Below, one piece after another: positions 21,409 through 39,514 of a stretch of DNA of 61,707 bases; the first letter of the stretch is position 1; every line of letters starts with the position of its first letter. The position numbers and the translations under genes were made by a program. The notes under the pieces were generated by a model. It had not been told where the DNA came from. It did not search any database and saw nothing but the letters and a program-made list of their open reading frames with translations. This stretch comes from an uncultured Gammaproteobacteria bacterium (GTDB taxonomy: Bacteria; Pseudomonadota; Gammaproteobacteria; HK1), in contig CAMYJH010000029.1 in the NCBI GenBank assembly GCA_947258715.1, forward strand, positions 1 to 61,707, read 5' to 3'.

Positions 21409-21594
21409 GCGTTCGAGATCGAAAAACCTGAAGCACTGAGCAGTCTTTGGCGTTAGTATTGACATGCGGCCAGCTACGCTGGCGCGCTTAATTCTTTCCT
21501 GCGACAAGTCGGCAAGATGTTCTACCGGTGCTGGAGCACCCCCGGCTTGAGCGATGCGCACGGTGAAGCTTCCGTTTAGAAGCGCGATTCACTA

Positions 21595-21735
21595 GAACCT
21601 ATCTCAAAATTAGCGAGCTTGGATAAGACAAGGCAAAAACAGGCTTAATCAGCGCAGTTTACACGCCAGCAAATGAGCATTTTGAGCCTGTTTTTAACGC
21701 CGTTAGGCTAAGCGCAGCAATTTTGAGATAGGTAC
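21595..21735. mobile_element. repeat family B copy 1: 141-bp MITE with 15-bp terminal inverted repeats (GAACCTATCTCAAAAT) and flanking TA
   Basis: GAACCTATCTCAAAATT ... AATTTTGAGATAGGTAC with TA at 21593-21594 and 21736-21737. TA flanks and short TIRs suggest an IS630/Tc1-type non-autonomous element. About 90% identical to 38677-38818. Confidence 0.65.
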
Positions 21736-21782
21736 TAACAAACATTTGCGACAGCGTTTCCCACCAACCCTCGGAGAAACCA

Positions 21783-21992
21783 GTGAACGACTCAAACGAG
21801 CTGCCGATAAGTATCGAAACCAAGGGCGTCACCGGCCGTGACGGCTACATCATTGCCGAGTCACTGGTATTCGCAATAAAATACATCGACGAACTGCCCG
21901 ACAACATACGGCCGACGGCGGACAAAAACGACATCATCAAAATTCTCAATACCGCCTTTCCCACCTGGGAGGACGTGCTGGGTCCGGGCTGA
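21783..21992 (+). CDS. small acidic hypothetical protein (69 aa), GTG start, in a low-GC islet
   Basis: RBS GGAGAAACCA before GTG 21783. Translation VNDSNELPISIETKGVTGRDGYIIAESLVFAIKYIDELPDNIRPTADKNDIIKILNTAFPTWEDVLGPG. GC content clearly below surroundings. No recognised family. Confidence 0.45.
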   Translation: MNDSNELPISIETKGVTGRDGYIIAESLVFAIKYIDELPDNIRPTADKNDIIKILNTAFPTWEDVLGPG

Positions 21993-22174
21993 GTTCCGGA
22001 TCAACCCTCGATGGGGGAGGACTGCGCAATTTTCGGGCGCGCGAGTCGGGACCCAAGGCGCCAGCGGGAAAAACGAATTTGGCGCGCGTCGGCGGCGCTG
22101 CATTCAAAGCTCCGACGCCGGCCTTGTGTACCAAATCAGTAACCATCCGCGAACATGAAGATGAATGACCCTCG

Positions 22175-22534
22175 ATGAGTTCCGAGCTGAAACAAAATCT
22201 GACCCGCGGCGAAACATGGATTCGCATGCTCTACGTGGTTCTGTTTGCCGCCATTTATACGGTTGCCGAGGTCGTACTCGTGGCGGTGGTGGTCGTCCAG
22301 TTCGGATTCGTACTGATCTCAGGAAAGCGCAATCCGAATCTTCTGCAGTTCGGCGGGCGTCTGAGCCGATATATGTACGACCTGCTCCTGTATTTCACCT
22401 TCAGGAGTGACGCCAAACCGTTCCCCTTCGACGACTGGCCAGCGGCCGATTACTCAGAGGGAGCAGCCAGCTCGAGGAAGAAGAGCGTGCGAAAGAGAGT
22501 GCCGCGGAAGAAAAAGGCCAGCTCATCAACTTAA
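22175..22534 (+). CDS. small membrane protein, DUF4389-like
   Basis: MSSELKQNLTRGETWIRMLYVVLFAAIYTVAEVVLVAVVVVQFGFVLISGKRNPNLLQFGGRLSRYMYDLLLYFTFRSDAKPFPFDDWP... has two TM segments; the basic Lys-rich tail is atypical. Stop codon overlaps the start of repeat A2. Confidence 0.5.
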   Translation: MSSELKQNLTRGETWIRMLYVVLFAAIYTVAEVVLVAVVVVQFGFVLISGKRNPNLLQFGGRLSRYMYDLLLYFTFRSDAKPFPFDDWPAADYSEGAASSRKKSVRKRVPRKKKASSST

Positions 22535-22689
22535 GGAAACTCTGAATAATTCCATCCCTGGAATTTTCAGAGTCGGCAAGTGAAAACGCGGTTTCCACTT
22601 GCCTCACGAATCCAATGACTTACAGTCATCGGATTCGGCGGTGCATCCCTGCTTAGCTAAGGAAGGTCTGATAAATCAGACCTTCCTTA
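22531..22689 (+). repeat. repeat family A copy 2 (direct orientation relative to copy 1)
   Basis: About 95% identical to 19929-20087, including the perfect hairpin GCTAAGGAAGGTCTGATAAATCAGACCTTCCTTAAG. TTA at both boundaries. Confidence 0.65.
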
Positions 22690-23115
22690 AGTAGAGACTC
22701 TGACCGAGATTGGATAAAAAATCTCGCTAAGCGCTACCGGCAACCGCGATGTCCGGATTGCCACCGCGGACGCTGGTCTCGATGTCAACGTGACCCCCAA
22801 AAGGCCTCGGCGGCCCGCGTGATGACGGCAACGATCCGGAGCAGCTTTTTTTGCCGCAGGTTACTCGGCATGCTTCCGGGGCGCGCTCATGCAGGCGGCG
22901 GGTGAGGAGAAGAGGAAGATCCCTGATGAAGGAACCTCGACGGGAAGTCATGCACCGAGGGTGAGCGCTTCGTCCGAATTGCGGCACAGTTTCTGTAATC
23001 GGTGAAATAGAGACCGGCGCACGCAAGTGCTTGCTAACGCAACGCGCTCGCCAATGGCACAGATACGTTCGCTGCGGAAACGCCTGCTGGCGGAGGCTGC
23101 GGACGGCAGCGTCGG

Positions 23116-26100
23116 CTAAGGCGACGATTTCTCGCTCAAGTTCCGATAGTAGCGCTCCACGATCTCGGCATGGGAAGGTGGGGGTTCCGTGCGCGCCACC
23201 GCCGCTGAAGTGGGCGGCGTTTGTTCCAGACGCGCGCGCAGCTCTCGTTCGATGTTCTTCAACGCCGCCAGCAGCTCGGCATGCCGGAGCTGAAGCGAGG
23301 CGGCGTCCAGCTCTTCCTGCCGTCGCGCGCCCTCCAAGGCCGAAAGCAGGGCCGCCAGATCGCCTGCGAGCCCCGGTTCGGCGGCAAGCGCTTCGGCCAG
23401 GCCGCCGATACTGCCGGCGCGCTGCTCCAGCGCGTGGCGGTAGTCGGCGAGATCCGCCGGGTCGACATCTGCGCGCGATCCTCTGCCCGGCAAAACGGGT
23501 CCACGCCGGGCCTGGTCGGCGAGACGCTCCTGGTCGCGCTCCAGTCCACGCATGTTGCCGCGCAGCTCATCGAGCATGTGGGATAAACGCATGCCGCCGG
23601 GTTCGCCAATCTGCCTCGAGGCGGACGCGATGCGGGCGCGCAGAACCCGCAGCGCGCGGGTGATGTCGTCCTCCTCTTGCGCTTGCTCGGCAGTCGACCC
23701 GCGGGCAAATCCGTCTGCCGAGCGGCGAATGCGGTCGGCAATCTTCTCTTCCCGCAACCCGTCCGCGGCCTCTTTGAGCACTCTGGCGGCGCCGGGTTGC
23801 TGCTGTTGTCCGGCGCGTTCGGCCAGGCGGTCGAGCTGCGACTCCATCTCGCGCACGTCGCCCGCAAGGGTCTGCTTTCGCTGCGGCAGATCGCCGGGCT
23901 CAGCGGGGGCGTTCTCGCCTCGACTCAATCTGTCGGTGACGTCGCCCTCGATATCGCTTTGCCTCTCGGCCATCTCCTCGGCCTTGCGCAGCGCCTCTTC
24001 GGTGTCCCTGGAAAGCCTCGCCGGCCCTTCCGAGTCCAGCAGCCGGCTCGCTTCGCGCAGGCGATCCAGCGCCTCGGCACCGGCGGCGGCGTCGCCGGCA
24101 TCGGCGGAACGGCGCATCGCACGGGCGGCATTTTCGAGCGCGCTCAAAGAGGCGCGAAGCTCTTGGCTGGACTTGCGGCGGGTCAATCGCTCGAGCTCCC
24201 GCATGAGCCGCTCCACTTGCTCCGCCAATGCGCGCTGGCTGTCGGAGCCACCGCCGCCCCGACGGGCGCGCAGCTGCGCCCGTTCGAGCTCGCGCTGCTG
24301 TCGCTCCGCCAGCTCGCGCAGCTTGCGCAGAGTCTCGTCGAGCTGGCGGTTCTGGGGCCGCCAGTCGCCGCGGCGAATGTCCTCGTATTGATTTCGGAAG
24401 CGGTCCATCTCCAATCGGAACAGGTTCTCTAAATCGTTGGCCGCAGAAGCGCCGCCACGCTGGCGCGCCTGGGCGACCTGCACTTCGCGAAAGGCGCTGT
24501 CGGCGCGCTGGAGATGCAGCAGCGCGAAGCGCGCCGCGGGCAGCGCCGCCTTAACGTCGTTCAGCGCCAGCAGCGCTTCAACTTCCAACATCGACTTTGC
24601 CGCCTGCGGCAGTTCCTCGGCCATACGCCGGTAACCCGGATTGAGTTCGACGATGCTGCGGGCGCCTAGGCGTCGCACAATGGCCTCCACCCGGCTTCGG
24701 ATGCGTTCCTGGGCCGCGTTCAAAGTCGATACCCGTTTTTCGAATACTTCGCCCTCCATTGACGCGCGGTCGCGCAGCAGCTTGAACATGGCAATGACTA
24801 GAGTGCGCTGCTGTGCGGACAGCGTCTCTTCCTGCTGCGCGCCGGCGCGGCCGCCGGCGCCCCCCGCGCCGCCGCTGGGACGGTAGCTCATCTCGAACGG
24901 GCGAACGTCCATGAAAAATATGTCGGAGGTGAACTGGCGTGCGGGATCTCCGGCGGCGTCCCGGGCGCGCACGTGGTAGGCGATGAGATCCCCGGGGGCG
25001 AGATCACGCTCCTCGAGAAAGAGCTCCAGCTGGCCCTGCACTATGGGCTGCGGTCCGGAAGAATCGCTGAGATCGACGATTTCGTCGGCACCGCCGTTGA
25101 CCGAGAGCACAACTTCGAGTTCCCGCACCGCGACGTCGTCTTCGGCGCGAACGTCGACCGCGATCTCTTCGATGCTGGTTACACGCACGTCGCGCCCGGG
25201 GCTGAGCAGCGTGACTTTGGGCAGCGTGTCTACGTAAGCAACAATGGCGTGCTCGGGGGAAGCGGGCGCCATGCCGTAGCTCTCCGCTTCCAGCTCCACC
25301 CGGTAGCGACCGTCGTCGCGTACATCGATGGTGGCGCGCAGTTCGCCATTTTCTTCCGCCTTCAGATCCAGGTAACGCTCGCCGTCCAGAACGAGCCGGC
25401 CGCGGGATGTCGCTTCGCTTGGAGTGACCCGCACCTCGACCCGGGTGCCGCGCACCGCGGCGATGTCGCCGCCGTCGTTGACGAGTTCGGGGGCACGCCC
25501 GGTGTATTGGGGAAACTCGTACAGAAGGTCGATACGCTCGGCGACCGGCCGCGACACGACGTCGATTCGAAACACCGGCGATTGCAGTGACTCGTGAGTT
25601 ACGCGGTAGTCCAGCGCCGCGGTGACGTTGAATAGAAAGGTTTCGAACTCGGCTCTATCCGGAGTCGGGGCAAGCGGCACCTGCGTCCAATCCGTTTGTC
25701 CTTTGCTGCGATAGTGCAGGACGACCTGGGAAGGGTCGAAACCATCCGCGGTAGCACTGATACGCAGATCTTCTCCCGACAGCAGGGACGCATTGCCGGG
25801 TGCCACGTGCAGGGAATAGGGATTCAAAGCTTCCGCATCTGACGGCGAACTGACGAGCAGCCAGCTTCCGTGTCGCCACGAGTCCGGGCCCAGAGAAAGT
25901 AAGGCAGCGCCCACCGCGACGACGAGCGCGGCGGCAATGGACGCGCGCCGGGTGCGCCTGGTTTCGAGCTTCGACACCGCTGCTGAGGTTTCGCACTCCC
26001 GTGCCGCGTGATCCACCAGGCGACGGGCCAGCTGTGGCGAAGTGTCGCCCCGGATTTGCACCTCGTGGCGAAGCAGCGCGCGGGCTTCCACCGCGCTCAG

Positions 26101-26424
26101 CATCAGCGCGTCCAAATGTGGGGCGTTGGTTTCCACATAAAGCGCCATCGCATCGTCGGGGGCGTGAGCGATGGCGGGCCTGAGAACAAGCAGCAGGGCG
26201 ACGGCGGCGATCAGGTAAAACCCGATGCGCGCCCATGATATGGCGTCCGGCTCGAACAGCCAGGCGTTCATGACCGCGACGGCGGCGACAGCCGCCAGAA
26301 GCATCGCCGCCAGCGCGAGCGCGGTAGCTTCCAGAGTCCGTCGCCGGCGCCAGCGCCGACGCGTGCGGGTGAGCGAGCGGTCGAGGGCAAATTCACGCCC
26401 GCGGTTTCCGGCGCCTGCGGTCAC
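23116..26424 (-). CDS. large (about 1100 aa) membrane-anchored protein with central beta-rich region and long Arg/Glu/Ala-rich C-terminal coiled coil (BatD / DUF4175-like), last gene of the MoxR-VWA operon
   Basis: In-frame ORF runs to 26907, but the upstream gene ends at 26421. GTG 26424-26422 overlaps that stop (GTGA) and is preceded by AGAGGAG. N-terminal TM helices (LALAAMLLAAVAAVAVM; IGFYLIAAVALLLVL), then heptad-rich RRGDWRPQNRQLDETLRKLRELAERQQRELE... Confidence 0.6.
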   Translation of the reverse strand: MTAGAGNRGREFALDRSLTRTRRRWRRRRTLEATALALAAMLLAAVAAVAVMNAWLFEPDAISWARIGFYLIAAVALLLVLRPAIAHAPDDAMALYVETNAPHLDALMLSAVEARALLRHEVQIRGDTSPQLARRLVDHAARECETSAAVSKLETRRTRRASIAAALVVAVGAALLSLGPDSWRHGSWLLVSSPSDAEALNPYSLHVAPGNASLLSGEDLRISATADGFDPSQVVLHYRSKGQTDWTQVPLAPTPDRAEFETFLFNVTAALDYRVTHESLQSPVFRIDVVSRPVAERIDLLYEFPQYTGRAPELVNDGGDIAAVRGTRVEVRVTPSEATSRGRLVLDGERYLDLKAEENGELRATIDVRDDGRYRVELEAESYGMAPASPEHAIVAYVDTLPKVTLLSPGRDVRVTSIEEIAVDVRAEDDVAVRELEVVLSVNGGADEIVDLSDSSGPQPIVQGQLELFLEERDLAPGDLIAYHVRARDAAGDPARQFTSDIFFMDVRPFEMSYRPSGGAGGAGGRAGAQQEETLSAQQRTLVIAMFKLLRDRASMEGEVFEKRVSTLNAAQERIRSRVEAIVRRLGARSIVELNPGYRRMAEELPQAAKSMLEVEALLALNDVKAALPAARFALLHLQRADSAFREVQVAQARQRGGASAANDLENLFRLEMDRFRNQYEDIRRGDWRPQNRQLDETLRKLRELAERQQRELERAQLRARRGGGGSDSQRALAEQVERLMRELERLTRRKSSQELRASLSALENAARAMRRSADAGDAAAGAEALDRLREASRLLDSEGPARLSRDTEEALRKAEEMAERQSDIEGDVTDRLSRGENAPAEPGDLPQRKQTLAGDVREMESQLDRLAERAGQQQQPGAARVLKEAADGLREEKIADRIRRSADGFARGSTAEQAQEEDDITRALRVLRARIASASRQIGEPGGMRLSHMLDELRGNMRGLERDQERLADQARRGPVLPGRGSRADVDPADLADYRHALEQRAGSIGGLAEALAAEPGLAGDLAALLSALEGARRQEELDAASLQLRHAELLAALKNIERELRARLEQTPPTSAAVARTEPPPSHAEIVERYYRNLSEKSSP

Positions 26425-28517
26425 GTCACGGCTCCTCTTGCCACCGAGGCACGGCGGATTGAAATTCGGTTGGCGATCAGGCTTTCCACGATCAGCGTAA
26501 GGCCCGCAATCAGTAGCAGCCAGCGCGCCGGGCCGAAGGGATCGGTCCCATCGGCCCCGGCGGAGCCCGTGTTGCCTCTGAGCTCGGAACGCGCCCGGCG
26601 CACGATGCGACGCTCGAGCTCGGCAGCCGAAAGCGCCGCGAGCACGGACTCGGTCCGAGACACGTTGACCGCAAAAGGTAGCGATGCTCCGCGGCCACCG
26701 ACGCGATGAGCTTCGTGCATCCCCGCGATGCGGGTGGCGAACAAAGCGCCGCCGGCGCGCTCTATTCTCTGCGCAACCCCTGAGGGGGTTTCTACCACCA
26801 CGGCGCCGCCTCCGGCGAGCTGTGTTCGCCACTCGGACCCGGCCCGAAGATGGCTCGCAACCTGAGCCAAGTCCACCACTTCGCCCGCCAGGTAGGCGTC
26901 CCTCCATCCACCGCGCCCGGCGAGGTAAGCTACCGCCGCCTGCACGAACGGCACGAAGCCGGGTTCCAGCGCCAGAGTGCTCCAGCGGGGATCGGCGGTG
27001 GTGGCGAGCGCCAGCGCCCGTCCCGCACCGGAGACCCGTTCCAGCAACAGCGGCGGGCCGTTGTCGAGGCGGGCAAGTACCCGATCCTGGGCCGCGGGGA
27101 CCAGATTGCGGTTTGTAACGATTTTTGCGGCGGACAATGCCATGCCTCGTTCAAGCCCGGCGGCGGTCCACAGGGGATGATCGCCGGCGCTCGGTACGAC
27201 TCGATGCGCGCTGTCCGCCGCCGTCGATTCGGCGCCCAGGACGCCGGGAAGAAAACCGCCGTTTCCGCCCGGCCAGGCGGGGCCGATCGAGGGTCCGGCG
27301 ACCGCAATCACGCCGCCGCCGCGGTCAACAAAGGCTGCAATGGCATCACTCTGAGGTCCCGGTGTGATCGCCACGTCATCGAGCACCACCACATCGAAGT
27401 CTTCAAGCAGCGCATCGGCGACCTGCTCCAGACGTACCCGCCGGATCAGGACCGCTGGCTGCCGCGCCAGGCGCAAGGCTTGCTCGAAATATACGCCCTG
27501 GTGGGCGCGGGAATGGCGCGGCTCGATCAACGCTACGGCGACGGGCCGGCGCGGGGCCAGAACCAGGTGGTAGCGATCATCAGCCGGTAGGGCGTCAGGT
27601 CCGACCTGGAGCGTGATCGGCGTCGGTCGGTCCGCGGCCAGCACCAGCGGCAGCATCAGGGTGCGGGCTTCACCGGGGTCGAATTCAAGGGTCCGCGTCT
27701 CGGCTACGCGGCCGTCCACGACGAGCTCCAGTCGGGCCGCGGCAATCGGCGCGTCGCCCGTGTTTTCGATCCGCACCTGCAGCGTGTCCGCGACGCTCCC
27801 ACCCTGTTGCGGCGCCAGCCGGGCGTCGGTAACGGTGACATTCGCACCCACTGGCGCGTCGACAGCAACGATGTCCAGGGCGACTTTTTCGCCCAGCGGG
27901 ATCGCGCTGCTGTCGTCGAGGGCGCTTCGCTGCAGATCGGATATCAGCGCCACCCCGTGCCGTTTTGCATCGCTCGAGGCGAGCATCCGGCTGGCGGCAC
28001 CAAAGGCAGCCGCATATCCCGTTCTTCCCTCGCCGGGCTGGATGCGATTCAGCGCCGCGAGGAGCAACGTCTTGTCGCCACTCAGCTCCGAGATGACCTG
28101 GGCGTGGTCCTGGAATGTCACCAGCGCCGCGCGTTCGCCGGACCCGAGCGCCTGGAGGCGCTCGCTGGCGGCGGCCGTCGCACGCTTCCACCGGTCCGGA
28201 TGACTCATGCTGTAAGAGCGATCGAGCAATATCACGACGTCGCGTTCGATTGCCGAAGCGCTGGTGGCTGACAGCTTCGCATTGAAATAGGGAGACGCGA
28301 AGGCGATAACAACTGCGGCAAGCGCAAAGCAGCGAAGCGCGAGCAGTATGGGGTTCCGGATCCGGCGCCGACGTTTAATCTCGAAACGAATCCGGCGCAC
28401 GAACATCAGCGAAGGAAACTTTCGCCCGCTCTCCTCTTCTCGCTGCACCAAATGGATGAGCACCGGCACCGACAGCGCCGTGAGCCCCAACAGCAGCCAG
28501 GGATTGATCAGTCCCAT
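26421..28517 (-). CDS. BatA-like protein: N-terminal double-TM (LIHL) domain plus von Willebrand factor A domain
   Basis: MGLINPWLLLGLTALSVPVLIHLVQRE... resembles the BatA N-terminal double-TM domain. VWA/MIDAS-like DVVILLDRSYSMS follows. ATG 28517 overlaps the upstream stop (ATGA). Confidence 0.7.
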   Translation of the reverse strand: MGLINPWLLLGLTALSVPVLIHLVQREEESGRKFPSLMFVRRIRFEIKRRRRIRNPILLALRCFALAAVVIAFASPYFNAKLSATSASAIERDVVILLDRSYSMSHPDRWKRATAAASERLQALGSGERAALVTFQDHAQVISELSGDKTLLLAALNRIQPGEGRTGYAAAFGAASRMLASSDAKRHGVALISDLQRSALDDSSAIPLGEKVALDIVAVDAPVGANVTVTDARLAPQQGGSVADTLQVRIENTGDAPIAAARLELVVDGRVAETRTLEFDPGEARTLMLPLVLAADRPTPITLQVGPDALPADDRYHLVLAPRRPVAVALIEPRHSRAHQGVYFEQALRLARQPAVLIRRVRLEQVADALLEDFDVVVLDDVAITPGPQSDAIAAFVDRGGGVIAVAGPSIGPAWPGGNGGFLPGVLGAESTAADSAHRVVPSAGDHPLWTAAGLERGMALSAAKIVTNRNLVPAAQDRVLARLDNGPPLLLERVSGAGRALALATTADPRWSTLALEPGFVPFVQAAVAYLAGRGGWRDAYLAGEVVDLAQVASHLRAGSEWRTQLAGGGAVVVETPSGVAQRIERAGGALFATRIAGMHEAHRVGGRGASLPFAVNVSRTESVLAALSAAELERRIVRRARSELRGNTGSAGADGTDPFGPARWLLLIAGLTLIVESLIANRISIRRASVARGAVT

Positions 28518-29452
28518 CAGCGCACTCTCGCCAGCCGCGCGCGATTGGAAAGATAGCGCCACAGCATGTCGTCTAAGGGCCGATCAGTGACGAAGCAATC
28601 ATAATCGATGCGCCGGTCCCCCAAGGCTCTGGCCAGGGCGGTCACGTGCGCGTCCACCAGCTCGCGGTAAGCGGCGCGTCCCTTCGGCGTCACCGGCACA
28701 CGTTCCCCGGTTTCCAGATCTTCGAGCACCGCCGGATCGGAAAGGGGCAGATCGCGCTCGAAGGGATCGAGCACGTGCAGCGCTATCACGTCGTGACCGC
28801 GCACCCGAAGCGAATCGAGCGCTACGGCGACATCCGCCGGCGCGGCGTAAAAGTCGGAAATGACGACCACGATCCCGCGCCTCCCCAAACGCTCGCTCAC
28901 GCGAGGAAGGGCCGCAGTCACGTCTCCGCTGCCTTGGGCGCGGGCGCGATCCAGCGCCTGGAGAATGGCGTTGCGCCGCCTCGCCGACGGCGGCAGGAAG
29001 TCCACCAGATCCGAATCGAAGCTCACCAGTCCCACCTTGTCCCGCTGTCGCGAGGCAAGGTGCGCAAGCGAAGCCGCCATGAAGCGGGCGTAGTCGAGCT
29101 TGGAAACCTCGCCGCTGGCATAGCCCATGGAGGCCGACACGTCGAGGGCGATGACCACGTCGGCGTTGGTTTCCGCCTCGAAAGTTTTGACGTAGATACG
29201 GTCGGTGCGGGCGAATACTCGCCAGTCGACCTTTCTCACGTCATCCCCCGGCGTGTATTGACGGTGCTCTGCGAAGTCCGTGGATACGCCGAGGTACACG
29301 GTTTTGTGCAGGCCGCTGATGAAACCATCCACCACCACCTGGGCAATGAGATCCAGGTTGTCGATGCGCGCGAGCACGTTGGGATCGAGGAATTGCGCCG
29401 GCGCGGTGCGTCCCGCCGCGTTGCCGCCGCCGGTTGCAGCGGTTGCGCTCAT
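28517..29452 (-). CDS. DUF58 domain protein (MoxR-associated VWA-like)
   Basis: EHRQYTPGDDVRKVDWRVFARTDRIYVKTFEAETNADVVIALDVSASMGY... matches the DUF58 signature (DxRxIDWkatAR). Start overlaps the MoxR stop. Confidence 0.8.
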   Translation of the reverse strand: MSATAATGGGNAAGRTAPAQFLDPNVLARIDNLDLIAQVVVDGFISGLHKTVYLGVSTDFAEHRQYTPGDDVRKVDWRVFARTDRIYVKTFEAETNADVVIALDVSASMGYASGEVSKLDYARFMAASLAHLASRQRDKVGLVSFDSDLVDFLPPSARRRNAILQALDRARAQGSGDVTAALPRVSERLGRRGIVVVISDFYAAPADVAVALDSLRVRGHDVIALHVLDPFERDLPLSDPAVLEDLETGERVPVTPKGRAAYRELVDAHVTALARALGDRRIDYDCFVTDRPLDDMLWRYLSNRARLARVR

Positions 29453-30489: not shown

Positions 30490-30520
30490 GCTTCGTCTCC
30501 CATGTTACTGAGCCGCTGTT

Positions 30521-33013: not shown

Positions 33014-33996
33014 TACTGGGCCTGCTTCGCGCGGTAGGCGCGGCGATTGAGAGCAAGTTCCAGCAGCAGCGCCTCCAGCCGCTGAAGATAATCGGCGGAC
33101 TCGAGCGAGCGTTTCTTTCGTTTTGTCTCTTCGATCCGATCCACCAGTCGGCGCGCCTGGATCTGAAGCGCCAGCGCCTCGCGCCCGGCGGGCGTGTCGA
33201 TCGCGGCCGGCGCCTGCAGATGCACCCGGGCCGCCAGCATCCCATCCCCTTCATCGGCGTCCGGGTCGCGGCTTCCCGCGCCGTCACCGTCGTCATCCAA
33301 CATCGCGTGCTCGGTGCGAATGCGTCCCTCGGTCTCGAATTCGCGAGCGACTTCGCGGCTGGCGTAACGAAACGCTTCCAGCAGCGACACCTGCTTGTCT
33401 TTGTCCGCATCTGCGGCGTCTTCCGCGAAGGCATCGACGAAATGACCGCCGAATCGGGTGTGCTGGTTTTCCGCCGTGTTGGCGGTGGCGGTGATGACGA
33501 TGCGGCCGGGCGCCGAAAGCGCCTCGACGAAGGGCGCGCTGGAAGGCGCCGCGATCACCGCTACTACGGTTCTGCCGTCGAGCGCATCCAGCGCCGCTGC
33601 GAGCTCGGCGGCGGAAAGATCCGGCCCCGGAAGATTCAACAACGCCTGTCGGCCGCCGGCGGTGGCGTGGCCCAGATAGACCAGCGCCACCAAGTCGCCA
33701 TCGCCAGCAATCTTGCCCAGTCGATCAACGCTTTCGATCACCTGTTGCTTGCGCGAAACCGCGGCAATGAATTCCGGATCCCGCGACGGATCCTCCGCCA
33801 GGCGAATCACCCGCCCGGGCGAAACGCCGAGCCGGGTGGTGGCCACCTGGCTCAAGGTGGTCGCCCAGCGGTGGAAAAGATCGGAGTAGTAGGGCTCGCC
33901 GCCCAAACCAGTGACGATTAGGAGGTGCGGCTCCGCTGCCCGCGCTTGCGCGCCTGCGGCAAGCAGGAGGGCAAGCAAAAACCCGCGCGCGCTCAT
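33013..33996 (-). CDS. secreted hypothetical protein (327 aa) with acidic Asp-rich segment and C-terminal coiled coil
   Basis: Signal peptide MSARGFLLALLLAAGAQARA; start ATG 33996 overlaps the upstream stop (ATGA). No confident family assignment; a caspase/legumain-like fold is speculative. Confidence 0.5.
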   Translation of the reverse strand: MSARGFLLALLLAAGAQARAAEPHLLIVTGLGGEPYYSDLFHRWATTLSQVATTRLGVSPGRVIRLAEDPSRDPEFIAAVSRKQQVIESVDRLGKIAGDGDLVALVYLGHATAGGRQALLNLPGPDLSAAELAAALDALDGRTVVAVIAAPSSAPFVEALSAPGRIVITATANTAENQHTRFGGHFVDAFAEDAADADKDKQVSLLEAFRYASREVAREFETEGRIRTEHAMLDDDGDGAGSRDPDADEGDGMLAARVHLQAPAAIDTPAGREALALQIQARRLVDRIEETKRKKRSLESADYLQRLEALLLELALNRRAYRAKQAQ

Positions 33997-36254
33997 GCCA
34001 TGTCTCGCCGTCGGCGCCAGGCCCACTCAAGGCAGGCGAGCGCGAGCAGCGCCAGCAGCAGCGCCGGCGCGTCGCGAAGCGGAAGCCGTTTTTCCACCCG
34101 CAGCGTGGACTTGGTGTCGTCGATGACTCTAGTCATCTCCGACGCGCTGGCGGCGGTGAAGAAGCGGCCGCCGGTGTCCTCGGCAAGTCGCTTAAGCCGG
34201 GGCACATGGAGCTCCGCAGAGTGAAACTCTCGGCCTGAGCCGGAGACCTCAACCGAAGCCTCGGTCTGAATCGCTTCTCCCTCGGGCCCACTGAGCCTCA
34301 AGCGGAATTCGTGGCGCCCGATGTCCCGGGCGATAAAGCTCCCACGATGGAATCCGTCTTTGCTGATTGCGCGCTCAAGGGCAACTTCCTCCACCTGGCC
34401 CAGCGGGTCGGTGACTTCAAGCGTGACCCTCGGATCTGCCAGCGGAAAGAAGCGGGGATCCAATGTTTGCGCCTCGATGGAGATACTTTCCCCAACAACG
34501 GCCTCCGCCGGCTCGAGTTTAAGCTGTGCCCGGCCGCCTGCCGGCCGCGCGACGTGCCGGAGGAGATTGCGCCAAAGCCGCTCGTGGGTTTCGTCTTCTA
34601 GCGGCACCTCGGCGTGCATCTGCCAACGCCAAGAGTCGCGCACCGGAAACGCGGCCACGGTGCCGCGCCCGTAGCGCTGCCAGGCGAGTATCACCAGAGG
34701 CTCTCCGGATCCGTCGTCGCCTTCGAGCACGGTGGTGGCGCCCGGCTTGGAACGTCGTATGGGGTTGATTACGGTGAGCGGCGGTAGCTGTTCCCAGGAG
34801 GCATAAAGCTGATCTGCTTTCGCCAGCCGAAGCAGCGGATTGTCGCCATGGCTTACGGATGGACGCACCGGTACCTGCGCCCGGTAGGCGCTGGCCGCGG
34901 GCGGTAGAACCACCGGCGAGATCCCGGCGAGTGTGGATTCCGAATAGCCGCCTTCGGCGAAGGCGCGGCGGCCCCCGAGCAACACCAGACCGCCGCCGCG
35001 GCGGGCGACGAACTCTCGTAACCGAGACTGCAGCGCTTCGTCAAAGAGGTCGTTGCCGATGCTGCCGAGCACCACGGCGTGGTAGCGAAAAAGCGCTTCC
35101 TCCGAGGCCGGCAGCCCTTCGGCCAGCTCGTCCGCATCTTCGACGCCGAGGCGGTAGTATTTGTTTTCCGCCGTGCGCACCAGGGAAACCAGACGGATGG
35201 CGTCATCCGCCGCCACGGCGCGGCGGAGAAACTTGACCTCGAAACGCGGCTCGCCCTCGATGTGCAATATGCGCACCGGATCGCCACGCACGTCAACGGC
35301 TCGGTGCGCCGCGTTGTTTTCTACCACGATCTCGCCGGGTTCAGGCGCAACCCGAAAAACCATCCGCCGCGGCCCCTGTCGATTGAATTCGAGCGGAACC
35401 TTAAGCGACACCGGCCGGTCGCCAGCGGGGAGCGTCAGTGACTGCTCTTTCACGATCGCGCTCTCTTCCTCCACCACCAGCGTGACCGTCTTAGCGGCGA
35501 GTCCGCGGTGGCTGAGCTTCACTTCCGCCTCCATCGCGTCTCCGCGCAGCACCGTCCGCGGCAAGCGCACTTCGGTCACTTCAATGTCGGTCTTCAGCCG
35601 CTCCGACCCCACGCCCACGCTGTGGAGGGTCACGCCCGAGGCCTTCAACGCGCGCAGCGCATGGTCCAACGTGCCGCTGTCTTCGACTGCGCCATCGGTG
35701 ACCAGTACGACGGCCGCGAGGGCGCTGGCGTCAGGGGCGTGCGCTACCCGCTCGAGTGCACGGGCGAGGTCGGAACGCGCCCCGGAGAAGGTTAAAACTT
35801 CGCCGGGCGCGAGCGTTTCCACGTCGGCGGAAAATTTGAGATAGCGGATGTCGAAGCGCTGCTCCAGCGTCGCGGCCAGCGTGCCCGCGCCGGGGGTGAA
35901 CGCGCCTGCGACGAATTCGGAACGCGCCGCGCCGTCTAAGTCGCGAATGCGCATGCTCAAGGAGTCGTCGATCAGCACCGTCACGTGGCCCCGCACCGGG
36001 TCATCGGTTTCCACCACCAGCCTCGGGTCCAGAAGCACGAATAACAGCAGCGCCAGCAGCGTCGTTCGTAGCGCCCAAAGTCCCACCCGATCGCGTTTGC
36101 GGCGCGGAGATCCCGCGCCGAAATAGCCGAGCGCGATCGCCGCCAGAAGGGCAATCGCCAAGACCGCGGCGGCGTAGCCGCCGAGGGGCCACAGCATCTC
36201 CAGTGTCCCGCGTGAGAAAAGCTCCGCCGGATATTTAAAGGCGAGTTCCAGCAC
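33993..36254 (-). CDS. BatA/BatB-like membrane protein: N-terminal TM pair, VWA domain, additional C-terminal domains
   Basis: N-terminal TM pair (LWPLGGYAAAVLAIALLAAIALGYF; GLWALRTTLLALLLFVLL). MIDAS-like VTVLIDDSLSM. C-terminal hydrophobic anchor LLLALLALACLEWAWRRRR. The region ...VVLGSIGNDLFDEALQSRLREFVARRGGGLVLLGG looks GATase1-like; weak call. Confidence 0.65.
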   Translation of the reverse strand: MLELAFKYPAELFSRGTLEMLWPLGGYAAAVLAIALLAAIALGYFGAGSPRRKRDRVGLWALRTTLLALLLFVLLDPRLVVETDDPVRGHVTVLIDDSLSMRIRDLDGAARSEFVAGAFTPGAGTLAATLEQRFDIRYLKFSADVETLAPGEVLTFSGARSDLARALERVAHAPDASALAAVVLVTDGAVEDSGTLDHALRALKASGVTLHSVGVGSERLKTDIEVTEVRLPRTVLRGDAMEAEVKLSHRGLAAKTVTLVVEEESAIVKEQSLTLPAGDRPVSLKVPLEFNRQGPRRMVFRVAPEPGEIVVENNAAHRAVDVRGDPVRILHIEGEPRFEVKFLRRAVAADDAIRLVSLVRTAENKYYRLGVEDADELAEGLPASEEALFRYHAVVLGSIGNDLFDEALQSRLREFVARRGGGLVLLGGRRAFAEGGYSESTLAGISPVVLPPAASAYRAQVPVRPSVSHGDNPLLRLAKADQLYASWEQLPPLTVINPIRRSKPGATTVLEGDDGSGEPLVILAWQRYGRGTVAAFPVRDSWRWQMHAEVPLEDETHERLWRNLLRHVARPAGGRAQLKLEPAEAVVGESISIEAQTLDPRFFPLADPRVTLEVTDPLGQVEEVALERAISKDGFHRGSFIARDIGRHEFRLRLSGPEGEAIQTEASVEVSGSGREFHSAELHVPRLKRLAEDTGGRFFTAASASEMTRVIDDTKSTLRVEKRLPLRDAPALLLALLALACLEWAWRRRRDMA

Positions 36255-36255
36255 C

Positions 36256-37068
36256 TCAGTAGCTCATTCCGTAAATCACGAAATTGATCCCGATCTCGAA
36301 GGCGTAGGTGGAATAACGCAGCGGATAGCTCGGCAGGTCCGCCCACTCCCAGGCGTCGCCGAGATCGGTGTTCCAGTTGATGAGCACCATGAGCCGACCT
36401 TCGTCGTCGAAGATGCCGCGCACCCGAGGTATGCGCCCGTCGTATTCCCAGGTGGGGCCGCCGGCGGCCTGGTGCACGTTGGGCACCTGGAGGATCTCGC
36501 TGATGTCATAAAAGGCATGAAATACGGGATGATCCAGCGGCACGTCGACGATGGTGCGATTGGGAAATACGAGCCGCATCTCCTGCTCCAGGTTCTGCCA
36601 CGCCCATGTGCCCCAGAAGTCGTCGATGACCATGAAGCCGCCGGCGAGCAGGTATTCCCTCAGGGCCTTGGCCTGCGCTTCGGTCAGGGACAGCGAACCG
36701 ACTTCAAGCACGTAGAGAAAAGGAAAATCGTGCAGCCGCGCTTCGCCGATGCTGATGGCGTTATCTTTGTCGAATGCGTCGACCACCGTCAGGCGGCGGA
36801 GCGCCACCAGGAACTGCTCGTCGGCTTTCGGAAAATCAACCGCCCAGCGGGGACCCCAGTCGGCAGCGCCGACACCGCCTTCGCCGTAGATCCCCCGGGT
36901 GAAGTAAAATTCGTGCTCTCCTCCGCGCAGCTCACCGTTTGCGAGCGATGGCGAAGCCGATGCCAAAAGCAGGCCCAAGGCGACCAAAACCCTTCCAGCG
37001 GCCTCGCGCATTGTCAGCCCCGGCTGCAGGAAAGCGGTGTCCCGCGTGTCTTCAAAAGCACGACGCAT
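36256..37068 (-). CDS. DUF4159-like secreted protein, first gene of the MoxR-VWA operon
   Basis: Signal peptide (MRRAFEDTRDTAFLQPGLTMREAAGRVLVALGLLLASASPSLANG). ...YGMSY C-terminus; I recall this family co-occurring with DUF58/MoxR/BatA genes. Start set at 37068 so the gene does not overlap the upstream dioxygenase-like CDS; 37011 is an alternative. Confidence 0.55.
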   Translation of the reverse strand: MRRAFEDTRDTAFLQPGLTMREAAGRVLVALGLLLASASPSLANGELRGGEHEFYFTRGIYGEGGVGAADWGPRWAVDFPKADEQFLVALRRLTVVDAFDKDNAISIGEARLHDFPFLYVLEVGSLSLTEAQAKALREYLLAGGFMVIDDFWGTWAWQNLEQEMRLVFPNRTIVDVPLDHPVFHAFYDISEILQVPNVHQAAGGPTWEYDGRIPRVRGIFDDEGRLMVLINWNTDLGDAWEWADLPSYPLRYSTYAFEIGINFVIYGMSY

Positions 37069-37114
37069 GGGCCAAGCGCCCAGAAACTGGCGCGCAGCCC
37101 GATCTCGGGGTTGA

Positions 37115-37648
37115 TCAGTTGCCGGCATTCGAGGGGAGAACGAGTTCCACCCCACCCACCAGAACCTTCTCGCCGTCTTTGCGCACTTCTTCCAGAAGGA
37201 TGGCGAAATCCCCTTCGCGCGCTTCGTTCAGATGAGGATCACCTTTGAACAGTATCCTGGTTACGAGCTGTCCGTGGGATTCGTGGCGCACCAGGAGGTG
37301 AATGTGTTTCGCACCCCAGTATTGTCCCGGAAGCACGGTGGAGACGCTAAAACTCCCGTCCTTCGCGGTCTGAAGCGTCGCCCGGTAACGGACATCGTGG
37401 TAGTCGCCGTTGCCGTCGGCCTGGCGCAGCGCCACAAGCGCACCGGCCAGGGGCTGGCCGCTCGGATCCACGACGCGACCGCGCAGGAACAAGCGTTCCC
37501 CTGGGTCGCCGGGCTGCCAAAGGACTACGCTTGCCGGACCCCCCGTGACGCCTGATGCCGCTGACGGCACGGTGGCGGCAGGAACGGCCGCTGGCAGCAC
37601 GAGGAGGCCGAAGATTGAAGCCAAAAGGCAGCGTTTGATAGCGTACAT
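37115..37648 (-). CDS. small secreted intradiol-dioxygenase-like protein (protocatechuate dioxygenase beta-sandwich fold)
   Basis: Signal peptide MYAIKRCLLASIFGLLVLPAAVPA. Motifs LFLRGRVVDPSGQPLAGALVALRQADGNGDY ... VLPGQYWGAKHIHLLV resemble the intradiol dioxygenase core including the HIH iron ligands. RBS GAGGTGGAGG. Confidence 0.55.
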   Translation of the reverse strand: MYAIKRCLLASIFGLLVLPAAVPAATVPSAASGVTGGPASVVLWQPGDPGERLFLRGRVVDPSGQPLAGALVALRQADGNGDYHDVRYRATLQTAKDGSFSVSTVLPGQYWGAKHIHLLVRHESHGQLVTRILFKGDPHLNEAREGDFAILLEEVRKDGEKVLVGGVELVLPSNAGN

Positions 37649-37788
37649 CCTCCACCTCGCTGCTTAACAGCTGGGACCCCAACTATAACGGAAGAAGGCA
37701 CAGATTGAGCAAGGAATCAGCGGCCATAATATGCAATTCATTCGCCAAATAATCTCCTAAACTGTTTCTTTAAGACGGATGTAAGCCA

Positions 37789-38589
37789 GTGTTTACTGCC
37801 AAGAACATTTCCTCCGCGTTAGTCCTCCATTTTGCCGCGCTTTTGGGCGTGGCGCAGGCGGCACCTGCGTTTCAACCTGAGCCCTTTGAGGCTCATTTCG
37901 AGCTCGAAGTCCGGGGATTCACGGTTGGTGAGACGGTATGGCGCGTGCAGCGCGTGGACGACGGATTCATCTATGAAACTCGGACAAGAGCCATCGGTTT
38001 TGCCGCAGTGTTTGGTGCGAAGCAGGTAGTGGAGCGCAGCGAGTGGAAACGCGTCGGCGACGGCGTCAAGCCCGCGAGCTACCTCTATGAGCGCAGCGGC
38101 AGACCTGACAAGACAACAAAGATTGCTTTCGACTGGAACAACGGTCTAGTTGAAAGCACCCGGCGCGGACAAACCTCGCGAATGCCCGTACCGGTCGATA
38201 CGCTGGACAAGCTCGGCTACATGCTGGTGCTGATGGAGGACCTCAAAGCAGGAAAGCGCAGCGTGCGTTACCACATCGCCAGCGGCAAAAATCGGATGAA
38301 GGTATACGAGCTCAAAGTCGTTGCCGAGGAACGGATGAAGACGGCGCTGGGCACCTTTGGAGTACTTAGAATCGTGCGCGAGCGCAAGGACGACGATCGC
38401 CAAACCACTATCTGGGTTGCGCCAGAGCTGGATTTCATGCCGGTGCGAATCAAGCATCGGGAACGCGAGGATGAAGTCGTGACTATTAGTATCCGATCCT
38501 TTTCGCGTGGTTCCATGGCCAAGAAAGCTGGCACTGACGAGGCCGAAGTACATACCCAGCCGAATCCCGTCCCTCAAGATAGAAGATAA
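37789..38589 (+). CDS. secreted hypothetical protein (possibly DUF3108 family)
   Basis: GTG start; signal peptide VFTAKNISSALVLHFAALLGVAQAAPA. 266 aa, beta-rich, no enzymatic motif recognised. Confidence 0.5.
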   Translation: MFTAKNISSALVLHFAALLGVAQAAPAFQPEPFEAHFELEVRGFTVGETVWRVQRVDDGFIYETRTRAIGFAAVFGAKQVVERSEWKRVGDGVKPASYLYERSGRPDKTTKIAFDWNNGLVESTRRGQTSRMPVPVDTLDKLGYMLVLMEDLKAGKRSVRYHIASGKNRMKVYELKVVAEERMKTALGTFGVLRIVRERKDDDRQTTIWVAPELDFMPVRIKHREREDEVVTISIRSFSRGSMAKKAGTDEAEVHTQPNPVPQDRR

Positions 38590-38676
38590 TCCCCGAGTAC
38601 GGTTTCGGGCTTGAACGGCTTTGAAATGTCGAGTTCGATTCAACCCGCTGGATAATCTATCGACGGCGCTTGATTA

Positions 38677-38818
38677 GAACCTATCTCAAAATCAGCGAGC
38701 TTGGATAAGACAAGTCAAAAACAGGCTTAACGAGCGCAGTTTACAAGCCAGTCAATGAGCATTTTGAGCCTGTTCTAAACGCCGTTAAGCTAGACACAGC
38801 AATTTTCTGGATTAGTTC
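38677..38818. mobile_element. repeat family B copy 2: 142-bp MITE, degenerate right TIR, TA flanks
   Basis: About 90% identical to 21595-21735. Left TIR GAACCTATCTCAAAAT intact, right end GATTAGTTC degenerate. TA at 38675-38676 and 38819-38820. Confidence 0.6.
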
Positions 38819-38836
38819 TAAGCCCAAGTAGCAGGC

Positions 38837-39514
38837 GTGAACAAAAGCGAATTCCGACTCCCCGGTTCTCTCGCCACCGCTGTCCTGGCGGCGCTAGTGA
38901 TCGTGGGCGCTTATCCCAACCCCGCCTCGGGCGCCGATCAAAGTGAACCGGTTGCAGCGGCAGAGATGTTGGAGGTTGCTACATTTGCCGGCGGCTGTTT
39001 TTGGTGCGTGGAATCAGACTTCGATGCTGTTGCCGGCGTTGTGCGCACGGTTTCCGGCTACACCGGCGGTCACGTCGAAAATCCGACCTACAGGCAAGTG
39101 TCATCAGATACCACGGGACACCGGGAGGCGGTTCAGATCTACTTCGATCCGGATCGGGTCGCCTTTGCCGATCTACTGGAGATTTTCTGGCGCACCATCG
39201 ATCCCACTGACGCCGGCGGTCAGTTCTGCGATCGCGGCAAAAGCTATACCACGGCGGTATTCGCAAACTCGGAACAGCAGCGCCGTGCGGCAGAAGCGTC
39301 AAAGAAAATGGTTGAAAGCTCGGGTGTCCTCGGGCAACCCGTGGTGACAGCTATCGAGACTGCGGGGCCGTTTTATCCCGCCGAGGATTACCACCAGGAC
39401 TACTACAAAAAGAACCCCCTGCGCTACAAGTTCTACCGCTTCTCGTGCGGGCGCGACGCCCGGGTTAAAGATCTCTGGGGGGAGCAGGCGCACCGCGGGA
39501 TCGCAGCGCATTGA
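38837..39514 (+). CDS. msrA: peptide methionine-S-sulfoxide reductase MsrA with signal peptide (periplasmic)
   Basis: ATFAGGCFWCVESDF (catalytic GCFWC), YTGGHVENPTYRQV, HQDYYKKNP. GTG start. Confidence 0.9.
   Translation: MNKSEFRLPGSLATAVLAALVIVGAYPNPASGADQSEPVAAAEMLEVATFAGGCFWCVESDFDAVAGVVRTVSGYTGGHVENPTYRQVSSDTTGHREAVQIYFDPDRVAFADLLEIFWRTIDPTDAGGQFCDRGKSYTTAVFANSEQQRRAAEASKKMVESSGVLGQPVVTAIETAGPFYPAEDYHQDYYKKNPLRYKFYRFSCGRDARVKDLWGEQAHRGIAAH

What the first reader, a model, noticed from the sequence alone, without database searches (positions are those of the whole stretch)
21593..38820. New MITE family with 15-bp TIRs (GAACCTATCTCAAAAT) and TA flanks, two copies in the window
The 141-bp copy at 21595-21735 and the 142-bp copy at 38677-38818 are about 90% identical, both intergenic, and each bounded by TA dinucleotides. 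They have terminal inverted repeats; the second copy's right TIR is degenerate. Internal complementary segments (AAAACAGGCT / AGCCTGTTTT) predict a folded RNA or DNA hairpin. TA target duplication plus short TIRs is the signature of IS630/Tc1-mariner-derived non-autonomous elements; no transposase is present here.
Basis: seen in the sequence. Interest (0 to 1): 0.55.

Follow-up and report, generated by a model that had tools for sequence, protein, structure and literature searches.

The report
Miniature transposon of an IS5-type element
The two ~141-bp repeats are real miniature transposons that inserted at TA sites. They ride on an IS5-family (IS427-type) transposase, not the IS630/mariner type first proposed, and their hairpin core is shared with many similar elements that carry different ends.

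Summary
Copy A (21595-21735) and copy B (38677-38818) are 87% identical, 43% G+C in a 62% G+C contig, intergenic and flanked by TA. Copy A folds into one long hairpin.

They are mobile. Close relatives carry exact empty sites with a single TA, so each insertion equals the element plus a 2-bp TA duplication.

The proposed IS630/Tc1-mariner origin is wrong. The same 16-bp terminal repeat bounds an ~837-bp insertion sequence found in many MAGs of several phyla. That element encodes a 257-aa IS5-family transposase (DUF4096 + DDE_Tnp_1, NF033580). Its size, repeat length and 2-bp duplication match the IS427 group. The window holds no transposase, so mobilisation must be in trans.

One result was unexpected. 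The ~72-100-nt interior core occurs in at least 120 metagenome contigs and in Pseudomonas and Halomonas plasmids, nearly always with different terminal repeats (at least five types, one with 4-bp duplications). The whole hairpin is kept by compensatory changes in 31 of 43 pairs.

Verdict: a new member of a known kind (IS5/IS427-derived MITE). The modular core is the more interesting part and remains unexplained.

The parts
21593..21594 (.). Left TA of the target-site duplication, copy A
   Evidence: The relative L126 has a single TA here (GCGATTCAC-TA-ACAAAC). The window has TA + 141 bp + TA (alignment A3).
21595..21735 (+). MITE copy A, 141 bp, intact
   Evidence: The hairpin is -56 to -58 kcal/mol and G+C is 43%. 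The copy is absent from the 92-94% identical syntenic contig L126 and from L127.
21595..21610 (+). Left terminal inverted repeat of copy A (GAACCTATCTCAAAAT)
   Evidence: Identical to both ends of the ~837-bp IS5-family elements.
21720..21735 (-). Right terminal inverted repeat of copy A (GTACCTATCTCAAAAT on the - strand, 15/16)
21629..21700 (+). Conserved hairpin core of copy A (CAAGGCAAAAACAGGC...GTTTAC...AAATGAGCATTTTGAGCCTGTTTTTAACGC)
   Evidence: About 86% identical to the cores of more than 100 metagenome elements that carry other terminal repeats. The pairing is kept by compensatory changes.
21736..21737 (.). Right TA of the target-site duplication, copy A
38675..38676 (.). Left TA of the target-site duplication, copy B
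   Evidence: The relative L125 has GAT-TG-AGCCC where the window has GAT-TA-[142 bp]-TA-AGCCC (alignment A2).
38677..38818 (+). MITE copy B, 142 bp, with a decayed right arm. It ends 18 nt upstream of the msrA start codon at 38837.
   Evidence: It is absent from the orthologous DUF3108-msrA spacer of L125 and L119-L124.
38677..38692 (+). Left terminal inverted repeat of copy B (GAACCTATCTCAAAAT)
38802..38818 (-). Degenerate right terminal inverted repeat of copy B (ATTTTCTGGATTAGTTC)
38711..38782 (+). Conserved hairpin core of copy B
38819..38820 (.). Right TA of the target-site duplication, copy B

Best explanation
The two repeats are copies of a non-autonomous miniature transposon (MITE). 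Its 16-bp ends (GAACCTATCTCAAAAT) are the terminal inverted repeats of an ~837-bp insertion sequence of the IS5 family, IS427-group type. That element encodes a 257-aa DDE transposase. SHOWN: each copy is a precise insertion at a TA dinucleotide that is duplicated on both sides. SHOWN: the same ends bound transposase-coding elements in many genomes. SHOWN: the window contains no such transposase. INFERRED: a transposase supplied in trans, from a full-length copy elsewhere in this genome or once present in the lineage, binds the two ends and makes staggered cuts 2 bp apart at a TA target. Repair of the gaps then gives the TA duplication. INFERRED: copy A is recent and probably still mobilisable. 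Its ends are intact and it is absent from a relative that is 92-94% identical. INFERRED: copy B is older and probably immobile because its right end is decayed. SHOWN: the interior is not a deletion remnant of the IS. It is a ~100-nt hairpin core shared with a much larger set of gammaproteobacterial MITEs that carry other terminal repeats, and its pairing is maintained by compensatory substitutions. INFERRED, weakly: the single-stranded fold of the '+' orientation (RNA, or DNA during transposition or replication) contributes to the element's success. This reading rests on an excess of G:U over A:C and on a 2:1 orientation bias with respect to flanking transcription.
For: The repeats are real and hairpin-forming. 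Empty sites exist for both copies. For copy A, the window has CAC-TA-[141 bp]-TA-ACA where L126 has CAC-TA-ACA, a gap of exactly 143 columns; L126 is syntenic and 92-94% identical over ~21 kb, with the alignment breaking exactly at 21594/21734. For copy B, the gap against L125 and L119 is 144 columns, and the DUF3108-msrA spacer is 92-103 nt in relatives against 247 nt here. It gave 17 repeat pairs 831-857 bp apart and about 60 pairs of 118-323 bp. The 837-bp elements encode DUF4096 + DDE_Tnp_1 and match NF033580 'IS5 family transposase' at 202 bits against a cut-off of 110, with 72-100% amino-acid identity among copies. The typical protein length is 257 aa, and 3337 protein clusters match at E<=1e-40. 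TA flanks both ends of most of the 90 paired elements, including ends that the search pattern did not constrain. IS427-group elements are 832-865 bp with 13-21-bp repeats and 2-bp duplications (PMC3281130 Table 2). The window has no transposase homologue. The element's G+C is 43% against 62% for the contig.
Against: No full-length IS could be shown in the same genome, because only this 61.7-kb contig is available and the window's proteins are not indexed for contig look-up. Mobilisation in trans is therefore inferred. Only two copies are seen here, so the genome-wide copy number is unknown. The MITE shares only the terminal 16-20 nt with the IS, so it is not a simple deletion derivative. Assignment to the IS427 subgroup rests on size, repeat length and duplication length; ISfinder could not be queried. 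Covariation of inner helices is not required by a double-strand DDE cut-and-paste mechanism and remains unexplained.
Confidence: 0.85

Rival explanations
1. One reading: an IS630/Tc1-mariner-derived (Stowaway-like) MITE, mobilised by a DDE_3-type transposase that duplicates TA.
For: A TA duplication and short terminal repeats fit this superfamily.
Against: All 17 coding elements bounded by this repeat encode an IS5-family transposase, with no IS630 domain hit. IS427-group IS5 elements also make 2-bp duplications. No IS630-like gene occurs in the window (for the neighbouring genes).
Confidence: 0.03
2. An immobile structured intergenic repeat, such as a REP/ERIC-like regulatory hairpin, terminator or small RNA gene, conserved by descent rather than inserted.
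For: The hairpin is long and stable. Both copies are intergenic and lie in the same orientation as their flanking genes. The core covaries.
Against: Close relatives lack each copy precisely, with a single TA at the site. G+C is 19 points below the contig. The ends are identical to those of a transposase-bearing IS. No Rfam family matches, even at E<=10. No promoter or terminator consensus falls inside the copies.
Confidence: 0.03
3. The hairpin core is itself the selected unit: a modular 'chassis' that has repeatedly acquired new terminal repeats. It is therefore mobilised by several different transposases, because its single-stranded fold (RNA or DNA) promotes transposition, persistence or a host-tolerated function. 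This complements the best explanation rather than excluding it.
For: The internal 21-mer hits at least 120 metagenome contigs, and only 4 of them carry the window's ends. At least five terminal-repeat types surround the same core. The T2 type shows 4-bp flanking direct repeats instead of TA. 31 of 43 pairs have compensatory changes, and 93.8% of cells are paired against 81% in shuffles and about 40% when the partner is slid; inner helices that are not part of the terminal repeats also covary. G:U exceeds A:C by 110 to 53, or 25 pairs to 10, p=0.017. Conversely, the window's terminal repeat is joined to 38 unrelated interiors in other genomes.
Against: The anchor 21-mer is conserved by construction of the search. 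The sequences are related, so shuffle tests overstate significance. Both arms of a terminal repeat must covary anyway if one protein binds both. The orientation bias is weak: 29 against 15 with naive gene calls. No partner IS was found for types T1-T4.
Confidence: 0.4
4. Each copy arose in place, by internal deletion of a full-length IS that had inserted at that site.
For: The ends and the TA duplication would be the same as for a full-length insertion.
Against: The two copies share the same ~110-bp interior, which has no similarity to any of the 17 IS interiors beyond about 20 nt at the ends. Two independent deletions cannot produce that.
Confidence: 0.01

Closest known systems
IS427-group insertion sequences of the IS5 family (for example IS1248, ISPpa2, ISPaes1 of Paracoccus; PMC3281130)
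   Same: The autonomous partner found here is 831-846 bp, has 16-bp terminal repeats starting with GA, is flanked by a 2-bp duplication, and encodes a DUF4096 + DDE_Tnp_1 transposase. The published group is 832-865 bp with 13-21-bp repeats and 2-bp (rarely 4-bp) duplications. A partial IHF-site-like match in the left repeat (TATCTCAAAATTA against WATCAANNNNTTR) parallels what that paper reports; this comparison is by eye.
   Different: The elements in the window are 141-142 bp and non-coding. The partner has a single 257-aa ORF rather than the usual two frameshifted ORFs. It is unnamed and known only from MAGs and metagenomes. The nearest annotated plasmid homologues (Deinococcus, Leptospira) are 47-55% identical.
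Correia elements (NEMIS) of Neisseria (from my own knowledge)
   Same: They are ~100-150-bp MITEs with terminal inverted repeats and a TA duplication. They are intergenic, often lie just upstream of genes, and their transcripts fold into long hairpins.
   Different: Correia repeats are 26 bp and unrelated in sequence. No cognate transposase is known and the elements are confined to one genus. Here a cognate IS is identified and the ends occur in several phyla.
Tourist MITEs / PIF-Harbinger transposons of eukaryotes (from my own knowledge)
   Same: They are non-autonomous elements mobilised by transposases of the superfamily related to bacterial IS5, with A/T-rich targets centred on TA.
   Different: They make a 3-bp TAA/TTA duplication, live in eukaryotic hosts and share no sequence with these elements.
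Stowaway / IS630-Tc1-mariner-derived MITEs
   Same: TA target duplication and short terminal repeats.
   Different: The transposase family differs. The matching autonomous element here is IS5-family.
Bacterial hairpin MITEs whose stems are reported to be kept by compensatory changes (for example Nezha in cyanobacteria, Chunjie in Geobacter; recalled from memory, not checked)
   Same: Whole-length imperfect palindromes, mobilised in trans by an IS sharing the ends.
   Different: The IS families and sequences differ. For those elements I found no description of one core combined with several unrelated terminal-repeat sets.

Membership tests
MITE (non-autonomous DDE transposon) | Short (about 50-500 bp) with no transposase ORF | tested here: met
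   The copies are 141 and 142 bp. The only overlapping ORFs are chance ones, and tblastn finds no transposase.
MITE (non-autonomous DDE transposon) | Terminal inverted repeats | tested here: met
   The 16-nt repeats match 15/16 in copy A. The right repeat of copy B is decayed.
MITE (non-autonomous DDE transposon) | Target-site duplication shown by comparing filled and empty sites | tested here: met
   Relatives have a single TA and the window has TA on both sides. The gaps are exactly element + 2 bp for both copies.
MITE (non-autonomous DDE transposon) | Multiple dispersed copies in the genome | tested here: inconclusive
   There are two copies in 61.7 kb. Four more copies of the same subtype occur on other metagenome contigs (L140, L142, L211, L246). 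The rest of this genome is not available.
MITE (non-autonomous DDE transposon) | An autonomous element with matching ends exists | tested here: met
   17 elements of ~837 bp have the identical 16-bp ends and a transposase gene. None of them is shown to be in this genome.
IS5 family, IS427 group (as the mobilising element) | DDE transposase of the IS5 type (DUF4096 N-terminal domain + DDE_Tnp_1) | tested here: met
   Pfam gives PF13340 at 2.5e-22 and PF01609 at 1.8e-16. NCBIfam NF033580 scores 202.5 bits against a cut-off of 110.
IS5 family, IS427 group (as the mobilising element) | Length of about 800-1000 bp, repeats of about 13-21 bp, duplication of 2 (to 4) bp | tested here: met
   The elements are 831-857 bp with 16-bp repeats and TA on both sides in most copies. 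The reference values come from PMC3281130 Table 2.
IS5 family, IS427 group (as the mobilising element) | Placement within the ISfinder IS427 clade by transposase phylogeny | not testable with these tools
   ISfinder is not available. The nearest annotated homologues are simply called 'IS5 family transposase' or ISDds9-like.
IS5 family, IS427 group (as the mobilising element) | The transposase actually mobilises the MITE in trans | not testable with these tools
   This needs an experiment.
IS630/Tc1-mariner-derived MITE | TA target-site duplication | tested here: met
   The feature is not specific to this family.
IS630/Tc1-mariner-derived MITE | Ends shared with an IS630-family transposase-coding element | tested here: not met
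   All coding elements with these ends encode IS5-family enzymes, and Pfam and NCBIfam list no IS630-type domain.
REP / REPIN (RAYT-mobilised palindromes) | Palindromes of 20-40 bp with a GTAG or CGTC head, no terminal repeats matching an IS, and no duplication | tested here: not met
   This element is 141 bp, has IS-type ends and makes a TA duplication.
Any curated RNA family (Rfam 15) | Match to a covariance model | tested here: not met
   No hit at gathering score in the window or in three related loci, and none at E<=10 on copy A.

The most novel reading that the evidence does not exclude
The ~100-nt hairpin core is a modular, structure-constrained passenger that has swapped its terminal inverted repeats at least four or five times. 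It is therefore mobilised by several different transposases: TA-duplicating IS427-like enzymes and at least one enzyme that makes 4-bp duplications. Conversely, the GAACCTATCTCAAAAT ends have captured dozens of unrelated interiors across bacterial phyla. The compensatory evolution of the inner helices and the G:U excess would then mean that a single-stranded form of one strand (a transcript, or a DNA hairpin) is functionally important for the element's spread or for its tolerance by the host.
Probability: 0.35. Interest if true: 0.65.

Novelty: new member of a known kind. Interest (0 to 1): 0.42.

Why it matters
For this genome, it shows recent transposition. Copy A is absent from a relative that is 92-94% identical. 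Copy B places a hairpin-forming insert 18 nt upstream of the msrA start codon, which may alter that gene's expression.

More generally, it links an abundant but unnamed environmental IS5/IS427-type element to a large set of MITEs. That element is present in closed MAG chromosomes of Nitrospirota, Acidobacteriota and Pseudomonadota, and in MAG contigs of other phyla. A recent census found MITEs to be almost always genus-specific (PMC11602168).

The many-to-many relation between ends and cores is also of interest. One core occurs with at least five end types, and one end type with 38 interiors. Together with covariation along the whole hairpin, this gives a concrete system for asking how MITEs acquire new transposase specificities and why bacterial MITEs are so often whole-length hairpins.

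Tried and rejected
1. Looking up the source genome by exact protein failed three times, and cluster look-up gave no accession. The copy number and the presence of the IS in this genome therefore could not be determined.
2. Rfam gave nothing at the gathering threshold on the window or on three related loci, and nothing at E<=10 on copy A.
3. Consensus scans found no promoter or terminator inside either copy.
4. Full-text searches for the terminal repeat and for core sequences returned no papers. Keyword searches found no description of this family.
5. No partner IS for terminal-repeat types T1-T4 was found among the fetched loci. The plasmid tblastn listed only distant IS5-family genes.
6. Phage carriage is not supported. 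The 14 viral-contig hits to the terminal repeat are solo, with no partner arm, and look like chance. Only 2 viral contigs hold the core.
7. A short ORF starting at the conserved ATG of the core (MSILSLF...) is 12, 7 and 15 codons long in copy A, copy B and the T1 consensus, read by eye. It was rejected as coding.
8. The in-situ deletion model was rejected because the interior is unrelated to the IS.
Full report
OBSERVATION. The two repeats are real and lie at the stated coordinates.
- Copy A is TA|GAACCTATCTCAAAAT...ATTTTGAGATAGGTAC|TA at 21593-21737, with a 141-bp element.
- Copy B is TA|GAACCTATCTCAAAAT...ATTTTCTGGATTAGTTC|TA at 38675-38820, with a 142-bp element.
- The repeat finder recovers them as one two-copy family at 89% ungapped identity. 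Global identity is 86.6%.
- Their G+C is 43% against 62% for the contig.
- Copy A folds over its whole length into one hairpin on either strand: -57.6 and -52.9 kcal/mol, z about -7, with 0 of 200 shuffles as good. Copy B has decayed to about -32 kcal/mol.
- Both copies are intergenic. A lies between an MFS transporter gene (20101-21408) and a conserved 69-aa ORF followed by a DUF4389 gene. B lies between a DUF3108 gene (37789-38589) and msrA (38837-39514), ending 18 nt before the msrA start codon.

MOBILITY. The window is a complete 61,707-bp NCBI contig. Its own proteins could not be traced to a record, but homologues led to orthologous loci.
- Copy B: relatives with 79-83% identical DUF3108 proteins have a DUF3108-msrA spacer of 92-103 nt, against 247 nt here. 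The alignment shows one clean 144-column gap. The window reads GAT-TA-[142 bp]-TA-AGCCC and L125 reads GAT-TG-AGCCC.
- Copy A: a 72-kb JGI contig (L126) is syntenic and 92-94% identical over about 21 kb, and the similarity breaks exactly at 21594/21734. L126 reads GCGATTCAC-TA-ACAAACATTTGCGA and the window reads ...CAC-TA-[141 bp]-TA-ACAAAC..., a gap of exactly 143 columns. A second relative, L127, is also empty.
- Each copy is therefore an insertion at a TA that became duplicated. Copy A is recent.

WHICH TRANSPOSASE.
- Pairing the arms gave about 60 elements of 118-323 bp and 17 elements of 831-857 bp.
- The long elements carry one ORF that fills the space between the ends. Its product has DUF4096 plus DDE_Tnp_1 and matches NCBIfam NF033580 'IS5 family transposase' at 202 bits against a cut-off of 110.
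- Copies are 72-100% identical at the protein level. The usual length is 257 aa, and 3337 protein clusters match at E<=1e-40.
- Most of the 90 paired elements have TA outside both ends, including ends that the search pattern did not constrain. Deviations are mostly TG or CA. One IS has AT on both sides.
- Published IS427-group members of the IS5 family are 832-865 bp with 13-21-bp repeats and 2-bp duplications (PMC3281130 Table 2). That is the architecture seen here.
- The carriers include closed MAG chromosomes of Nitrospira, Terriglobia, Bryobacterales and Arenicellales, plus contigs from Alpha-, Beta- and Gammaproteobacteria, Thermodesulfovibrionales, Desulfobacterales, Opitutales, Kiritimatiellia and Latescibacterota. 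Bin contamination is therefore unlikely to explain the cross-phylum spread.
- The IS630/Tc1-mariner assignment is not supported. The window contains no homologue of the transposase, so any mobilisation is in trans.

RELATION OF THE MITE TO THE IS. The MITE shares only the terminal 16-20 nt with the IS, so it is not a simple deletion derivative. Across genomes, the 67 MITE-sized elements with these ends fall into 38 unrelated interior clusters. The window's interior matched only a few gammaproteobacterial or Arenicellales MAGs, at 73-81%.

AN UNEXPECTED LAYER: THE CORE.
- Only four of these contigs carry the window's ends (L140, L142, L211, L246; about 84-90% identical to copy A).
- The rest share the ~72-100-nt core and subterminal sequence but have other terminal repeats:
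  - T1, the dominant type: TA|GCAGGCCGTTGAAAAAC...GTTTTTCAACAGCCTGC|TA.
  - T2: GGGCGCCTCTAAAAAC...
  - T3: GGGAAGCTCTGCAAAAC...
  - T4: CAGACAGAGTGAAAAC...
  - Several rarer types.
- T1 is flanked by TA. T2 shows 4-bp flanking direct repeats such as TGAA, AGTA, TGGA and GAAA.
- T1 or core copies also sit unannotated on plasmids of Pseudomonas veronii, P. aeruginosa, the P. syringae group and Halomonas.

COVARIATION IN THE HAIRPIN. The analysis used 55 non-redundant elements spanning all end types (alignment A5).
- The consensus fold has 43 pairs, and 31 of them show compensatory double changes.
- 93.8% of cells are paired, against 81.3% in shuffles (0 of 500 reach the observed value) and about 40% when partners are slid by 1-3 columns.
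- All 12 pairs of the terminal-repeat helix covary. So do inner helices, for example an apical C-G to U-A exchange at 38:15.
- G:U exceeds A:C by 110 to 53, or 25 pairs against 10 (sign test p=0.017).
- With naive gene calls, 77 of 89 elements are intergenic. Among co-directional neighbours, 29 elements share the genes' orientation and 15 oppose it.
- These are hints that one strand matters in single-stranded form, not proof. The sequences are related, and the anchor 21-mer is conserved by construction of the search.

MECHANISM. The best-supported account is a MITE mobilised in trans by an IS5/IS427-type DDE transposase that recognises the 16-bp ends and makes 2-bp staggered cuts at TA.
- Shown: the precise insertions, the TA duplication, the identity of the ends with a transposase-bearing IS, and the absence of a transposase in the window.
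- Inferred: trans mobilisation, and the present activity of copy A.
- Not explained by that mechanism: why one core persists under at least five end types with its pairing maintained.
- I rate at about 0.35-0.4 the reading that the core is a selected module that has repeatedly changed ends.

COMPARISON AND NOVELTY. The autonomous partner fits the IS427 group by every feature I could test. Clade membership in ISfinder could not be checked. The MITEs work like Correia elements (TA duplication, hairpin, positions next to genes). Through their transposase superfamily they are also the bacterial counterpart of plant Tourist elements. Both comparisons come from my own knowledge. No Rfam family matches and no paper in the searchable library contains these sequences. 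A 2024 census reports tens of thousands of unnamed MITEs, including more than 19,000 in Pseudomonas, and finds them largely genus-specific (PMC11602168), so the T1 form may already be catalogued without a name. I classify the finding as a new member of a known kind. The modular core is a possible new variant.

LIMITS.
Counts are therefore lower bounds, and no partner IS for T1-T4 was found.
- The host is probably an uncultured gammaproteobacterium. This is inferred from the names attached to homologous proteins and from the taxa that carry the same MITE subtype.

Noticed in passing
window 19928-20087 and 22530-22689: A 160-nt direct repeat (96% identical) brackets the MFS - MITE A - ORF69 - DUF4389 block. 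It ends in a 35-nt near-perfect palindrome (TAAGGAAGGTCTGATAAATCAGA(T/C)CTTCCTTA). The upstream copy is absent from the close relative L126, which has only the first ~85 nt of the downstream copy. It may be a second small mobile or duplicated element.
   Followed up: partly
window 18564-19000 (compare 20342-20565): A fragment about 72% identical to the 5' part of MFS transporter genes lies between the pyruvate:ferredoxin oxidoreductase gene and the 5'-3' exonuclease gene. It is probably a pseudogene remnant of an MFS paralogue. The region aligns with L126, so the fragment is not recent.
   Followed up: partly
window 39515-41841: A ~2.3-kb segment carrying a gamma-glutamyltranspeptidase gene (39632-41539, - strand; PF01019, E=3e-140) lies between msrA and the next gene. 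It is missing from relatives L119 and L125, where msrA is followed within ~10 nt by the dihydroxy-acid dehydratase gene. This is a lineage-specific gain or loss next to MITE copy B.
   Followed up: partly
window 22627-23050: About 425 bp, comprising the end of the downstream 160-nt repeat and a 99-aa ORF with no Pfam hit, has no counterpart in the syntenic relative L126.
   Followed up: no
window 2181-2265: An inverted repeat with 30-nt arms, 90% complementary and 25 nt apart (GGGACATTCAGAGTTCGTAAGTTACTGAAT / ATTCAAGGACTTACGAACTCTGAATGTCCC). It lies about 1.8 kb downstream of two tRNA genes at 57-131 and 295-367.
   Followed up: no
L140:1539-1688, L142:747-902, L211:6769-6912: Metagenome copies of the window's own MITE subtype carry a compensated variant of the terminal repeat...ATCTCAGAAT on the left and ATTCTGAGAT... 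on the right. Both arms changed together.
   Followed up: partly
L251:2501-2676 (P. aeruginosa RW109 plasmid); also L153, L196, and L135, L158, L165, L204: Some T1-type elements carry extra short inserts inside the hairpin. The P. aeruginosa copy has inserts in both arms that are roughly complementary to each other (cggtcggagtcgcgctcgac / tcggactcgcgcacgag). Others have a ~30-nt insert in the left arm only.
   Followed up: no
L138, L161, L196, L220, L224 (T2-type elements): Elements with GGGCGCCTCTAAAAAC ends are flanked by 3-4-bp direct repeats that are not TA (TGAA, TAT, AGTA, TGGA, GAAA). This points to a different transposase for the same core.
   Followed up: partly
L096:1070-1926 (Latescibacterota MAG): A full-length IS copy is flanked by AT on both sides instead of TA. 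The same 8-kb locus holds parts of two further copies. This is consistent with a 2-bp duplication that is not strictly limited to TA.
   Followed up: no
T1 and T5 elements in many loci (for example L136, L150, L157): The elements begin with G or A just after the TA, so the left junction reads TAG or TAA. With naive gene calls, elements lie a median of 0-16 nt after the stop of the upstream gene. They may often insert into the TA of stop codons and regenerate a stop. This was not tested properly.
   Followed up: no
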